Assembly (NCBI GenBank): GCA_964342815.1
Contig: CAYFHS010000008.1
Coordinates: 68,813-132,812, forward strand
Length of the DNA stretch: 64,000 bases
DNA from: an uncultured archaeon
GTDB taxonomy: Archaea > Thermoplasmatota > Penumbrarchaeia > JASLWR01
Reading direction: 5' to 3'
This document shows positions 2-6,002 of the stretch, piece by piece. Position 1 is the first letter of the stretch. Each line of letters opens with the position of its first letter. The position numbers and the translations under genes are program-made. The notes beneath the pieces were generated by a model. It saw nothing but the letters and a program-made list of their open reading frames with translations. It ran no database searches and had not been told where the DNA came from.

Positions 2-385
2 GATGAAGAATTTTTAGAAAGAAATTATTATATGTTATTAAGAGAATGTCAAACATCGTTACAAAAGGGCTGTCTGACGGGAAAGAACTACACCGAAGTA
101 CTCGACTGTGAAAGACACTTTGGATTTGCAGGCCCACAGAGACATTACTTTGCTCGGATCGCCAACCGCTGCTCGTACGTCCTCCATGAAACGGAATCTG
201 TTCCGTTTCATCCGAGTGGTGCAGAGCACCCGAGGAAGGTAAGCGCCGGAGGCGTATGCGACGTCAGCCGCTATTTTGGGGTAAAGCCCTTTCCTAAAGG
301 GCTTGCGGGCATCCACCTGTTCCTCGGTGAGTATTACAGGGATACGGGCCACCTTGAAGTTGTTGAAGAAGTTGGAGGTAAATAA
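2..385 (+). pseudogene. 3' end of an ORF entering from the window edge, ending in a remnant of the TPR C-terminal cassette interrupted by an in-frame insertion
   Basis: Frame is open from position 2. It encodes IANRCSYVL...IHLFLGEYYRDT, matching the C-termini of 385-1602 and 3303-6002, but with 38 extra codons between the two motifs. The stop overlaps the next ATG (TAATG). Confidence 0.5.
186..304 (+). mobile_element. Miniature palindromic element inserted in the TPR cassette remnant
   Basis: Absent from the two paralogous cassettes. 11-bp hairpin ATGAAACGGAA-tctg-TTCCGTTTCAT (186-211) at the left end and 9-bp hairpin AAGCCCTTT-cct-AAAGGGCTT (284-304) at the right end. No target duplication visible. 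Related copy at 54243-54339. Confidence 0.55.
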
Positions 386-3302: not shown

Positions 3303-6002
3303 ATGGAAAAAAGCCGAGATATCCCCGCAGATGTCCTCGACAAATTACTCGTAGACGCTCATTTCAGATGTGCCATTTGTCCCGAGCATAGAGATATCAG
3401 AAATATTCATCACATCGTACCATTCCGCAAGAACGGACCAAATTCTGAAAGCAACCTGATCGTGGTATGCCCCAATTGTCATGAAAGCATTCACCGAAAT
3501 CCAAGAGTCTATACGAAAAAACGAGTGAAAATGGCTAAACAGAAATGGATTGATATTTGCTCGAAATCATCTTTATCATTGCAAGAGAAAATTGCCCAAT
3601 CTCCTGGAATCGAGCTTGAAAAAAAATCCCCCCTCATCTTCATCCCTCACCCATACCCCGAGGCGCCAAACTTCACCGGCAGGAAAAAGGAGCGGGGGGC
3701 CATGCTTACCAAGTGGCTCTTGGAGGATACGGAGCATCCACTGTTATCTATGGTAGCGATTGGAGGAATGGGGAAGAGCGCCTTGACGTGGAGGTGGCTG
3801 CAGGAGGATGTTATAGGGAAGGGTGTGGAGTTTGATGGAATTGTTTGGTGGAGCTTTTATGAAAGAGAAGCTACTTTTCAAGCATTTATCAACGAAATGA
3901 TAGGTATCTTATTTCCAGAAAAGGAAAAGGAACTTCTGCAAAGGTCAGACAGGGAAAAGATAGATCTCATTTTGCTAGAATTCACTAGAAATAATTTTCT
4001 TATAGTTTTCGATGGTTTCGAAAGGACATTGCGGGCTTATGCTTTAGCGGGTTTATCCGTATGTTACATTGGCGATGAATATCAAAAAGGTATAGGTGAG
4101 AAATTTCGTCAATGCCTTGATCTAAACTTATCTCAGTTCATTCGTTCATTGACAAATCCTCAATGCAAGACAAAAATGATAATGACCACTCGATTGCATC
4201 CGCTCGATCTAAGAGGACTTATCGGAGTTCGGGAGGAAGAATTAACGAAAATAGACTCTAATGAGGCAGTTGAATTTTTTCACCGCCAGGGGGTGAAGGG
4301 TTCTGCACCTGAGATAAGACAAGCGTGTGCGAAATATGATTTTCTCCCGTTATGTTTACGTCTATTGTCAGGCGTACTTATCACATCTCAGAAGTATAAA
4401 GGTGATATCAAATACGTCAAGGAGATACCCGATCTGGTTTTAACCGATTCTGATGAGTATTACAAGGATTCTAAAAAGTTCGAACATATCCTCCAGTTCT
4501 CGTATGACAAATTACCCGAAGAGGATAAGGCATTGATATCTGGCATTGCTGCATTCAGATCACCCATGGAATTCGAGGTATTGCGAACCATATTCGGGAA
4601 CGATGGGGATGAGGATACTTTCCGTGGGAAATTGGAGCCTCTGGAAAGAAGGGGATTACTGTTCAATGATATTGAAAAGGATTGTTATGACCTCCATCCC
4701 ATAGTACGAAGATACTGTTATGGACGATTAACGGCTCCGAAGGAAACACATGAGAGGATACGCTTTTATTTTAATAGAAAAGTGAAAGATAAATTTGGTG
4801 AACTAGTAATTCCACAAAAAAAGTGGCTGATAACACCTGAAAAGGGAAAAGTTGAATCTACGCAAGAAATAGAGTTGGTGATTGAATTATATCATCATAC
4901 TATAAAGACAGGTCGTTATGATGAAGCATGGAAGTTATACAGAGATCGACTTTTAATAGCTGTTTATTACCATTTAAGAGATTTTAACAAACAAATCGAA
5001 TGTTTAACGGCATTATTTGGAGTTGATAGTGAACTTCCTAAACTGAAGAAAGGATCTTATATAGCTCATTGTTGTTATGAGCTTGCAAATGCCTATTCAA
5101 CATCAGGTAAACCCATTGAAGCAGCAAAACTCTACATGAAAGCATCAAGATTAGCAAAAAGGATGAAACAACAACGATATATTGGTAGGGCTTTAGTAAA
5201 TCTTGCTAAAAGAATGATTGATATAGGCGATTTTAAATCTGCCGAATTCAATATAACAAAAATGATTAAAATTTCAAAAATTATTAATATGAAATTTGAC
5301 GAAGCGTATGGCCATCGCTTATTGAGTATATTACATATAAATTGTGCTGAATACGAAAAATCTATAAAAGAAGCGGACAAAGTTTTAAAATTGGTAGAGG
5401 ATGAAGCCCCACATCAAATTGTTACGATTCATTATTACCAAGCCCTCCGAGCTCTCCTTATGAACCAACCTAAAAAAGCTGTTAAAACTGCAAATGACGC
5501 GCTTATACTTGCGAAAAAATGGGAAGAGAATGAATATCAAGTTGCTAGTGATTTCATTTGGGGTCACAAGCTCATTGGTGCCTCATATTTAGTAATGAAT
5601 GACACAAAGGAAGCTGAATCTCACCTTAATTTTGCATTAACTGAATGTCGTAAGTATAATCTTATTAAAATCGAAGCAGTAGTATTATTAGAACTTTCAA
5701 GATTGAATCATCTACTAAGTAATGAAAAAGAATCTTTAAATCTTGCCACCGAAGCCCTTGAGATCGCCAACCGCTGCTCATACGTACTCCAGCAAGCCGA
5801 CATCCACCTGTTTCTCGGCGAGTACTACAGGGATACGGACGACCTTGAACTTGCGAGGGAGCACGCGGGGTTGGCGAAGCTCAGGAGTCATCAGATGGTG
5901 GATGTTGAGACGGGGGATTATATTACGAAGGACGAAGGGACAAAGTGGAAGTACAAGCCGTGCTATGATAAGGCCAAAGCTCTTTTGGATACCTTATCTT
6001 AA
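3303..6002 (+). CDS. NLR-like STAND ATPase: N-terminal HNH endonuclease, NB-ARC-type NTPase, C-terminal TPR repeats
   Basis: HNH/Zn motif CAIC...IHHIVP...NLIVVCPNCHESIH; Walker A IGGMGKS; Walker B LIVFDGFE; hhTTR sensor; FLPL (GxP-like) motif; LHP (MHD-like) motif; TPR-like C-terminal half. Confidence 0.88.
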   Translation: MEKSRDIPADVLDKLLVDAHFRCAICPEHRDIRNIHHIVPFRKNGPNSESNLIVVCPNCHESIHRNPRVYTKKRVKMAKQKWIDICSKSSLSLQEKIAQSPGIELEKKSPLIFIPHPYPEAPNFTGRKKERGAMLTKWLLEDTEHPLLSMVAIGGMGKSALTWRWLQEDVIGKGVEFDGIVWWSFYEREATFQAFINEMIGILFPEKEKELLQRSDREKIDLILLEFTRNNFLIVFDGFERTLRAYALAGLSVCYIGDEYQKGIGEKFRQCLDLNLSQFIRSLTNPQCKTKMIMTTRLHPLDLRGLIGVREEELTKIDSNEAVEFFHRQGVKGSAPEIRQACAKYDFLPLCLRLLSGVLITSQKYKGDIKYVKEIPDLVLTDSDEYYKDSKKFEHILQFSYDKLPEEDKALISGIAAFRSPMEFEVLRTIFGNDGDEDTFRGKLEPLERRGLLFNDIEKDCYDLHPIVRRYCYGRLTAPKETHERIRFYFNRKVKDKFGELVIPQKKWLITPEKGKVESTQEIELVIELYHHTIKTGRYDEAWKLYRDRLLIAVYYHLRDFNKQIECLTALFGVDSELPKLKKGSYIAHCCYELANAYSTSGKPIEAAKLYMKASRLAKRMKQQRYIGRALVNLAKRMIDIGDFKSAEFNITKMIKISKIINMKFDEAYGHRLLSILHINCAEYEKSIKEADKVLKLVEDEAPHQIVTIHYYQALRALLMNQPKKAVKTANDALILAKKWEENEYQVASDFIWGHKLIGASYLVMNDTKEAESHLNFALTECRKYNLIKIEAVVLLELSRLNHLLSNEKESLNLATEALEIANRCSYVLQQADIHLFLGEYYRDTDDLELAREHAGLAKLRSHQMVDVETGDYITKDEGTKWKYKPCYDKAKALLDTLS
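5763..5853 (+). repeat. Third copy of the TPR C-terminal cassette core
   Basis: 5763-5804 matches 1318-1359 (40/42); 5802-5853 matches 311-362 (46/52). Confidence 0.9.

What the first reader, a model, noticed from the sequence alone, without database searches (positions are those of the whole stretch)
158..5853. Three near-identical DNA cassettes join divergent AT-rich modules: a possible sensor-shuffling mechanism
Seen: the core ATCGCCAACCGCTGCTC(G/A)TACGT(A/C)CTCCA occurs at 158, 1318 and 5763 (40/42 identity between copies 2 and 3). Immediately upstream, the two genes encode similar peptides with different synonymous codons (ttc gcc atc acc gaa tgc vs ttt gca tta act gaa tgt). The switch from AT-ending to C-ending codons falls at about 1165 in one gene and about 5745 in the other. 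After the core come two alternative tails (IEQFLGEF.. vs IHLFLGEY..). Copies 1 and 2 both end in AGTTGGAGGTAAA, which supplies the RBS of the next gene. Inference: conserved arms act as homologous-recombination or gene-conversion points that swap TPR sensors and tails and chain new cassettes, diversifying recognition specificity.
Basis: partly seen in the sequence, partly recalled or inferred. Interest (0 to 1): 0.82.

Follow-up and report, generated by a model that had tools for sequence, protein, structure and literature searches.

The report
Mosaic archaeal NLR-like defence gene tails
The three near-identical DNA stretches encode the conserved end-cap of a family of NLR-like (STAND) defence genes in a marine Thermoplasmata archaeon; comparison with sister strains shows gene tails were exchanged next to this cap by ordinary homologous recombination, not by a dedicated shuffling machine.

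Summary
The 29-nt core sits at 158, 1318 and 5763 and nowhere else in the 4.35-Mb MAG. Copies 2 and 3 are 40/42 identical. GC3 jumps at about 1165-1183 in gene A and at about 5745 in gene B.

The core encodes the last TPR hairpin (EALEIANRCSYVLQQADI) of a broad NB-ARC-TPR STAND family. The window holds four family-related units:
- R, a decayed remnant.
- A, a TPR-only gene.
- A nuclease-LamG gene.
- B, an HNH-NB-ARC-TPR gene.

Recombination at the core is supported. A sister-species allele matches A at 356/370 informative sites up to 1299. It then matches B at 70/80 sites (5750-5969), then A again at 12/14 sites. Both breakpoints have permutation p<1/2000. dS differs between the parts (0.27 vs 0.78; housekeeping 0.65-1.15). 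In another Thermoplasmata genome, six tandem paralogs show tracts of 83-100% identity that start at the core. AU tests reject congruence between body and tail trees.

An active or programmed shuffling system is not supported. There is no recombinase or reverse transcriptase, and the excess codon identity is confined to Thermoplasmata.

My reading is ordinary homologous recombination or gene conversion in an immune-receptor gene array, a known kind of evolution seen here in archaeal STAND genes. The scan's other notes on this DNA are re-reads of the same stretch.

The parts
1..385 (+). R: decayed remnant of a third family member. It has the core, an inserted hairpin element, the first 16 codons of a type II tail, an internal deletion and the family's terminal codons. 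Nothing upstream of the core is family-like.
   Evidence: The type II start at 311-358 is 43/48 identical to B 5802-5849.
158..186 (+). Core copy 1
187..310 (+). 124-nt segment where B has 10 nt (net +114 nt, in frame). It has two perfect hairpins (11 bp and 9 bp) and is unique in the genome.
   Evidence: with no Rfam match. A similar hairpin sits in remnant L059_c of another Thermoplasmata MAG.
385..1602 (+). Gene A: TPR-only protein of 405 aa. It is homologous over its full length to B residues 516-898 (40% identity) and is under purifying selection.
   Evidence: dN/dS is 0.24 against the sister-species allele L145.
1165..1367 (+). C-ending-codon (GC3 0.65-0.85) cap segment of A, ending in the core. 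It is 82% identical to the G001 remnant and 80% to G014_g3.
1318..1346 (+). Core copy 2. The tract shared with B runs 1297-1359.
1305..1557 (+). Tail segment of A between the two breakpoints; its type I sequence (with the CIEHCTHCW motif) begins after the core at 1368. The sister-species allele carries a type II segment here.
1581..1598 (+). Last tail codons (K)ELEV, holding GGAGGT 6 nt before the ATG of the next gene. The same arrangement occurs at 371-388.
1595..3301 (+). 568-aa gene with an N-terminal ~150-aa nuclease-like module, a LamG (Laminin_G_3) domain and an unknown C-terminal part. GC is 0.34.
3303..6002 (+). Gene B: HNH-NB-ARC-TPR STAND NTPase of 899 aa
3601..3825 (+). GC-rich patch (GC3 0.64-0.72) over the start of the NB-ARC domain and the P-loop. 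It is the other place where B is up to 75-82% identical in DNA to family members in other genomes.
5745..5969 (+). GC3-rich type II cap and tail patch of B, sister-allele-like (86% nt identity, dS 0.78). It is bounded by the core on the 5' side and by the YDKA motif on the 3' side.
5763..5791 (+). Core copy 3

Best explanation
**What it is.** The locus is a small defence-type gene array inserted between mtnA and meaB in a marine Thermoplasmata archaeon. Its members belong to one NB-ARC-TPR STAND (NLR-like) family.

**The repeat.** The repeated core is not a separate DNA element. It encodes the family's most conserved C-terminal segment, the last TPR hairpin. After it come two cap helices, a beta-hairpin and a terminal helix, which together form the tail.

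**How it works.** The cap is the longest stretch of DNA identity between otherwise diverged paralogs and incoming homologues. Ordinary homologous recombination or gene conversion therefore starts and ends there. A second endpoint lies at the YDKA motif near the stop codon.

**Result in this lineage pair.** A tail segment of about 220-250 nt lies on different bodies. Gene A has a type I tail and AT-rich gene B carries the type II tail. In the sister species that type II tail sits on the A-type body.

**Side products.** Truncated remnants are left behind: R here, the G001 remnant and L059_c.

**Shown:** the breakpoints, the different ages of the parts, conversion tracts in a second genome, and incongruent segment trees.

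**Inferred:** the direction and order of events, the donor, the use of the host's general recombination machinery, and the antiviral role of the genes.
For: 1. Sister-species allele L145 matches A at 356/370 informative sites up to 1299/5744. It matches B at 70/80 sites from 1305/5750 to 1557/5969, then A at 12/14 sites to the stop. Maximum chi-square is 263 and 35.6, both with permutation p<1/2000.
2. The same mosaic occurs in the G001 MAG and in contig L144, so three assemblies carry it.
3. dS against L145 is 0.27 for the A body, 0.31 for the cap-up segment and 0.78 for the B patch. Housekeeping genes give 0.65-1.15.
4. B jumps from GC3 0.10 to 0.75 exactly at the 5' breakpoint, whereas the sister allele is continuously GC3-rich across it.
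5. In the six-gene tandem array of G014, pairs g3-g4, g4-g5 and g2-g3 are 83-100% identical from the core into the tail but much lower upstream.
6. Tails of g2-g5 cluster within that genome while their NTPase parts fall in different clades. AU tests reject each partition's clades on the other partition, p from 1e-3 to 1e-55.
7. B's closest relative in the NTPase part (SH-aLRT 94) and the TPR body (85), G014_g1, carries a type I tail.
8. Synonymous codon identity at the core exceeds the codon-bias expectation: A-B 16/22 against about 10 expected, p 0.003-0.008.
9. The junctions are identical in independent assemblies and in low-coverage contigs from other studies.
Against: - The direction of events cannot be fixed. 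It could be a swap or two conversions in the G000 lineage, or conversion plus loss of the 568-aa gene and B in the sister lineage.
- L145 starts inside the A-like gene, so its upstream context is unknown.
- A-B identity at the core (0.78) is not higher than identity to copies in other genomes (0.72-0.83). A recent direct A-to-B conversion is therefore not shown.
- The A-side GC3 switch at ~1165-1183 predates the species split and is unexplained.
- The family-wide link between amino-acid conservation and GC3 (rho 0.75) is only loosely explained by recombination.
- The defence function is inferred from domains and neighbours alone.
Confidence: 0.8

Rival explanations
1. Programmed or dedicated sensor-shuffling system. 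The conserved arms would be maintained as recombination sites that actively and frequently swap sensors and tails to diversify specificity, in the manner of pilin cassettes, shufflons or DGRs.
For: - The repeats are direct copies at module borders, and truncated remnants resemble silent cassettes.
- Synonymous conservation of the core among Thermoplasmata exceeds the codon-bias expectation.
- The cap is GC3-rich, as expected if conversion is frequent.
Against: - No recombinase, reverse transcriptase or inverted repeat lies in or beside the island.
- The genome has only three copies.
- Excess codon identity is absent in bacterial family members.
- The exchanged parts differ by dS 0.27-0.78, so events are old and rare.
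Confidence: 0.08
2. No recombination: an old duplication in which the core is kept alike only by protein constraint plus a shared local bias for C-ending codons.
For: - The peptide is almost invariant in the family.
- Most core codons are C-ending.
- A within-segment codon shuffle gives expected identity close to observed (A-B 16/22 against 14.6, p 0.13).
- Bacterial members match B's core codons only at expectation.
Against: - The within-segment shuffle is too conservative for 26 codons. With cap-wide codon usage the excess is significant.
- This reading cannot explain the two sharp breakpoints, the dS heterogeneity or the GC3 step of 0.10 to 0.75 inside B.
- It also cannot explain the G014 tracts of 83-100% identity or the AU rejections.
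Confidence: 0.05
3. Metagenome assembly chimera: AT-rich and GC-rich parts from different organisms were joined at the shared core.
For: The genome is a MAG. The composition changes abruptly at a repeated k-mer.
Against: - ENA and Logan assemblies are 99.99-100% identical across all three cores.
- Short contigs from other studies bridge 53-258, 79-373 and 5703-5936 without differences.
- The exact repeat is only 29 nt.
Confidence: 0.02
4. The core, or the C-rich cap, is a functional nucleic-acid element (RNA structure, regulatory site or target of a mobile element). Its DNA would be conserved for that reason, and recombination would be incidental.
For: - Synonymous conservation runs across family-level genomes (B vs G014_g1 19/23, while housekeeping genes give 0.32-0.35).
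- Several independent in-frame insertions lie within a few codons of the core, in R, L059_c, G014_g2, g5 and g6.
Against: - There is no Rfam match.
- The codon identity excess is limited to Thermoplasmata copies.
- The insertions fall in predicted inter-helix loops, where they are simply tolerated.
Confidence: 0.05

Closest known systems
Tandem NLR / R-gene clusters of plants and fungi that evolve by unequal crossing-over and gene conversion (fungal NLRs: PMC4986451, PMC13449251; plant clusters from my own knowledge)
   Same: - STAND NTPase with repeat sensor and variable N-terminal effectors.
- Tandem paralogs.
- Mosaic genes with conversion tracts, and concerted evolution of part of the gene.
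   Different: - This case is archaeal.
- The genes sit in an operon-like array with translational coupling through the tail codons.
- The exchange shown here involves the C-terminal cap and tail rather than internal repeat units.
Rhs / CdiA C-terminal displacement with orphan cassettes (PMC3150448, PMC5361080)
   Same: - A conserved intragenic motif marks the border of a swappable C-terminal piece.
- Incoming pieces carry part of the conserved region.
- Truncated remnants accumulate beside the main gene.
- A compositional break falls at the border (recalled from the Rhs literature, not checked here).
   Different: - There are no YD/Rhs repeats.
- There is no toxin-immunity pair.
- Here the body upstream of the motif is also replaceable.
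Antiviral STAND (Avs) pattern-recognition receptors (PMC13581612)
   Same: - Architecture of effector, STAND NTPase and TPR-like sensor.
- The effector set across the family includes HNH, TIR, DUF4062, Mrr, PD-(D/E)XK and metallophosphatase.
- The genes lie in a defence-island context.
   Different: - No PADLOC Avs model matched at E<=0.01.
- No target or phenotype is known.
- That paper does not mention recombination, shuffling or gene conversion.
DGR-diversified STAND sensors of multicellular bacteria (PMC10907252)
   Same: The C-terminal part of STAND conflict proteins is the part that is diversified.
   Different: - There is no reverse transcriptase or template repeat here.
- Differences between copies are not adenine-specific.
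- Diversity comes from exchange of whole segments.
Neisseria pilE/pilS gene conversion (from my own knowledge, not checked here)
   Same: 5'-truncated silent copies share short conserved segments with an expressed gene and can donate the variable segments between them.
   Different: - No evidence of high-frequency conversion was found.
- There is no G4 or other initiating element.
- Remnants here look decayed, with an insertion and a deletion, rather than maintained.

Membership tests
STAND NTPase, NB-ARC (AP-ATPase) type | NB-ARC NTPase domain with Walker A and Walker B | tested here: met
   Pfam NB-ARC scores 26.3 bits against a cutoff of 23.5, E 5.4e-6, residues 135-237 of B. GGMGKS and LIVFDGFE can be read in the translation.
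STAND NTPase, NB-ARC (AP-ATPase) type | C-terminal repeat sensor (TPR superhelix) | tested here: met
   TPR_12, TPR_2 and TPR_MalT hits. The AlphaFold model of B 500-899 has pLDDT 92.8 and 17 helices. Foldseek hits are LGN, MalT domain III and Rap.
STAND NTPase, NB-ARC (AP-ATPase) type | Variable N-terminal effector across family members | tested here: met
   B has HNH. Relatives carry DUF4062, TIR, Mrr_cat, DUF4365, metallophosphatase or HTH.
Avs1-5 (named antiviral STAND families) | Match to a family profile | tested here: not met
   The PADLOC scan of B gave only HNH and TPR fragments. No Avs model matched at E<=0.01.
Avs1-5 (named antiviral STAND families) | Protection against viruses upon sensing a viral protein | not testable with these tools
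   This needs expression and infection assays.
Gene conversion / homologous recombination among paralogs | Mosaic with statistically supported breakpoints against a reference allele | tested here: met
   Maximum chi-square is 263 and 35.6, permutation p<1/2000.
Gene conversion / homologous recombination among paralogs | Different divergence (dS) on the two sides of a breakpoint | tested here: met
   dS is 0.27-0.31 on one side and 0.78 on the other.
Gene conversion / homologous recombination among paralogs | Incongruent phylogenies of adjacent segments, and within-genome homogenised tracts | tested here: met
   AU p ranges from 1e-3 to 1e-55. G014 tracts are 83-100% identical from the core onward.
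Programmed diversification (DGR, shufflon, site-specific cassette exchange) | Dedicated enzyme (reverse transcriptase, invertase or integrase) at the locus | tested here: not met
   The ORFs and called genes between mtnA and meaB are an AAA_14/DUF4143 ATPase, R, A, the 568-aa gene and B. The flanks are housekeeping genes.
Programmed diversification (DGR, shufflon, site-specific cassette exchange) | Alternative junctions within a population | tested here: inconclusive
   Only low-depth contigs could be laid, and these cannot show rare variants.
Rhs/CDI C-terminal displacement | Rhs/YD or CdiA core with a toxin tip and a cognate immunity gene | tested here: not met
   Pfam shows only HNH, NB-ARC, TPR and LamG. 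The resemblance is in the mode of evolution only.

The most novel reading that the evidence does not exclude
The GC3-rich cap and the 5'-truncated remnants (R, the G001 remnant, L059_c) could be a selected landing pad. Any fragment of a foreign array cut between two caps would be an ends-in substrate that integrates at a resident cap. That would add one unit, swap tails and keep the Shine-Dalgarno site for the next gene. Frequent conversion, with GC-biased repair, would then explain why conserved segments of the family are GC3-rich in low-GC archaea. On this reading, archaeal NLR-like arrays would have a built-in evolvability device comparable to Rhs or pilS cassettes.
Probability: 0.12. Interest if true: 0.7.

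Novelty: new member of a known kind. Interest (0 to 1): 0.42.

Why it matters
Prokaryotic STAND/NLR-like receptors are now known to be very diverse. How new combinations of effector, sensor and tail arise has mostly been inferred from domain catalogues. Here, three structural alleles of one locus in close relatives, plus a six-gene array in another genome, show the process at nucleotide resolution in archaea. Homologous exchange is anchored in the conserved C-terminal cap, as in plant and fungal NLR clusters and in Rhs toxins. This gives a concrete, testable model for how defence arrays grow and reshuffle. It also flags a broad, uncharacterised NB-ARC-TPR family with three tail types. It does not reveal a new molecular machine.

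Tried and rejected
- **Read-level variation.** Only Logan contigs at depth 2-5 could be laid from four runs. No joints were seen. Single-contig loose ends at 5707-5741 (X5), 63 and 5974 (X6) probably come from related organisms and were not pursued. This cannot exclude rare variants.
- **Rfam.** A scan of 1-6300 at E<=5 gave only chance-level hits.
- **Viral contigs.** No relative of the family was found.
- **PDB sequence search.** Only the HNH part of B matches.
- **568-aa gene.** No close homologue exists in 37 genomes of the class, so the donor of the AT-rich DNA could not be traced.
- **Upstream of L145.** The contig also begins inside the gene.
- **Within-segment codon shuffle.** I dropped it because it is too conservative for a 26-codon segment, and replaced it with cap-wide codon usage.
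- **Simple Campbell-type insertion.** I first favoured insertion of the 4.4 kb between cores 2 and 3. I rejected it as the sole event because a second breakpoint at 1557-1563/5969-5975 shows that only the tail middle is exchanged.
- **Insertions as multicopy elements.** The G014_g5 in-frame insertion and the R hairpin element are each unique in their genomes at the mismatch levels tried.
- **P-loop patch as recombinant.** The trees do not clearly separate B from its body relatives there, so this is left open.
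Full report
**1. What is there.** The window is G000:C8:68813-132812 of a 4.35-Mb, 45% GC MAG. Relatives returned with record titles are Thermoplasmata archaea. Runs that hold the DNA are marine or seawater metagenomes. Between the housekeeping genes mtnA (IF-2B family) and meaB lie five units:
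- An AAA_14/DUF4143 ATPase, which matches PADLOC PDC-S01 at E 2e-95.
- R, a short ORF (to 385).
- Gene A (385-1602, 405 aa, TPR only).
- A 568-aa gene (1595-3301). Its N-terminal ~150-aa module is shared at 55-59% identity with TPR, TIR and SIR2 fusion proteins, and it has a LamG domain.
- Gene B (3303-6002, 899 aa, HNH-NB-ARC-TPR).

These calls rest. Stops and starts of R/A, A/568 and 568/B overlap or abut. A aligns over its whole length with B residues 516-898 at 40% identity.

**2.
- The 29-mer occurs three times in the window with none expected by chance. These are the only copies in the genome.
- Copies 2 and 3 are 40/42 identical.
- GC3 steps from 0.45 to 0.80 in A near 1165-1183, and from 0.10 to 0.75 in B near 5745.
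- Both extremes are rare in this genome. Mean GC3 is 0.51. Only 1.3% of windows reach 0.75 and 0.2% fall to 0.15. Mean C3 is 0.26, against 0.65-0.75 in A's cap.
- Independent ENA and Logan assemblies are 99.99-100% identical across the cores. Short contigs from other studies bridge the switch points. Assembly chimerism is therefore excluded.

**3. What the core is.**
- The family is broad. At least 218 relatives were found in GTDB species genomes of Chloroflexota, Cyanobacteria, Acidobacteriota, Planctomycetota, Methanophagales, Methanosarcinales and Thermoplasmata.
- N-terminal domains vary: HNH, DUF4062, TIR, Mrr, DUF4365, metallophosphatase and HTH.
- The core encodes EALEIANRC(S/G)Y(V/I)LQQADI, the most conserved stretch of the C-terminal region.
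- In a confident model of B 500-899 (pLDDT 92.8), the core spans the end of helix 15 and the start of helix 16 of a 17-helix TPR superhelix. Behind it lie one more helix, a beta-hairpin and a terminal helix, which together form the tail. Foldseek finds only generic TPR proteins.
- Three tail types recur across genomes. Type I is in A, G014_g1 and G012_1 and contains CxxHCxHC. Type II is in B, R, the G001 remnant, G014 g2-g5, L049 and L051. Type III is in G014_g6 and L059_b.
- The two alternative tails are therefore old paralogous variants, not products of this locus.

**4. Evidence for recombination at the core.**

(a) Sister-species alleles.
- G001 (same genus) has at the syntenic site only a GC-rich 3' fragment. 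It matches A 1206-1382 (83%) and B 5742-5974 (86%).
- A pattern scan of JGI metagenomes returned the same truncated form (L144). It also returned a fuller allele, L145, which is 97.9% identical to G001. In L145 an A-type TPR body (89% identical to A) carries a type II tail and is followed directly by meaB.
- At sites where A and B differ, L145 follows A at 356/370 sites up to 1299/5744. It follows B at 70/80 sites from 1305/5750 to 1557/5969, then A again at 12/14 sites to the stop. Both breakpoints have permutation p<1/2000.
- The 5' breakpoint lies just ahead of the core and coincides with B's compositional step. The 3' breakpoint lies at the conserved YDKA motif.

(b) The parts have different ages. 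Nei-Gojobori dS against L145 is 0.27 for the A body, 0.31 for A's cap and 0.78 for B's patch. Three housekeeping genes give 0.65-1.15.

(c) A second genome shows the same process.
- G014 has six tandem family genes with different effectors.
- Pairs g3-g4, g4-g5 and g2-g3 are 83-100% identical from the core into the tail and far less alike upstream.
- Their type II tails cluster within the genome, while their NTPase parts belong to different clades. AU tests reject each partition's clades on the other partition, p from 1e-3 to 1e-55.
- B's nearest relative in the NTPase part (SH-aLRT 94) and in the TPR body (85), G014_g1, has a type I tail.

**5. What is not supported.**
- The island holds no recombinase or reverse transcriptase, and the repeats are direct.
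- A and B are no more alike at the core (0.78) than each is to copies in other genomes (0.72-0.86).
- Synonymous identity at the core exceeds what cap-wide codon bias predicts: 16/22 against about 10, p 0.003-0.008.
- That excess is confined to Thermoplasmata copies. Bacterial and cyanobacterial members match B's codons only at expectation. This points to shared ancestry and exchange within the class, not to a family-wide DNA element.
- The demonstrated exchange moved the tail, not the TPR sensor.

**6. Order of events (inferred).**
- The sister allele is continuously GC3-rich across the 5' breakpoint, whereas B has a sharp step there. The simplest reading is that the A-type body with type II tail is the unrecombined form.
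- On that reading, B's patch was copied or swapped from such a gene in the G000 lineage, and A received a type I segment.
- The reverse order is also possible: conversion of A by B in the sister lineage, followed by loss of the 568-aa gene and B.
- A single Campbell-type insertion between cores 2 and 3 does not fit, because of the second breakpoint.

**7. The remnant R.** R retains the core and the first 16 type II codons (43/48 identical to B). A deletion joins these to the family's terminal codons. R also carries the hairpin-bearing insertion at 187-310. Nothing upstream of its core is family-like. It is the stump of a third array member.

**8. The shared 3' end.** The family's terminal codons (K)ELE read GAGTTGGAGG. 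In arrays this sequence sits 5-9 nt before the next start codon: R to A, A to 568, and G014 g1 to g2, g2 to g3 and g3 to g4. Last genes in arrays (B, G014_g6) lack it. It reflects translational coupling within tandem arrays.

**9. Unexplained.**
- A's own switch to C-ending codons at ~1165-1183 predates the species split.
- Across 11 full-length Thermoplasmata genes, window-wise amino-acid conservation correlates with GC3 (rho 0.75).
- The cap is GC3-richer than the TPR body in most of 77 family genes, most strongly in low-GC archaea.
- Repeated recombination in conserved segments, perhaps GC-biased, is a candidate explanation but was not tested.

**10. Verdict.** The finding is a real and well-resolved case of homologous exchange at a conserved intragenic anchor in an archaeal NLR-like gene array. 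It is a known kind of evolution in a new setting, not a new mechanism.

Noticed in passing
window 187-310: In remnant R, a 124-nt segment replaces 10 nt (net +114 nt, in frame). It has two perfect hairpins (11-bp and 9-bp stems). It is unique in the genome and has no Rfam match. A similar hairpin (CTTTCCTAAAGGGC) sits at the same place in remnant L059_c of another Thermoplasmata MAG.
   Followed up: partly
L039/L040 (G014:C271:18970-36620): Six tandem NB-ARC-TPR paralogs carry different N-terminal domains, and all three tail types occur in one array. Three of the genes (g2, g5, g6) have short in-frame insertions a few codons upstream of the core. The g5 insertion is unique in that genome.
   Followed up: partly
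11 full-length Thermoplasmata family genes (alignment): Amino-acid conservation and GC3 correlate strongly along the genes (Spearman 0.75 pooled; 0.47-0.65 in 8 of the 11 genes). GC3-rich patches sit at the P-loop region and the cap. B is the exception (rho 0.09).
   Followed up: partly
window 493-1299 vs L145 1-807: The A body is much less diverged from the sister-species allele (dS 0.27) than housekeeping genes are (0.65-1.15). This suggests recent transfer of this gene between the two species.
   Followed up: partly
window 1850-2525: Two other assemblies of the same population (ENA and Logan) both break their contigs inside the AT-rich 568-aa gene, not at the cores. Possible causes are strain variation or low coverage there.
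   Followed up: no
window 1595-2050: The N-terminal ~150 aa of the 568-aa protein is a module found at 55-59% identity at the N-terminus of TPR, TIR and SIR2 proteins elsewhere. One relative carries a Pfam Mrr_cat hit.
   Followed up: partly
window 1420-1460: Type I tails carry a conserved C-x2-H-C-x-H-C motif (CIEHCTHCW) that is absent from types II and III. It may be a metal site.
   Followed up: no
L041 about 10200-10215 (G001:C78): A run of N (scaffold gap) lies just downstream of the G001 remnant, between it and meaB.
   Followed up: no
G000:C8:67384-68697 (just upstream of the window): An AAA_14/DUF4143 ATPase matches PADLOC candidate system PDC-S01 (E 2e-95). It forms the upstream edge of the island.
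   Followed up: no
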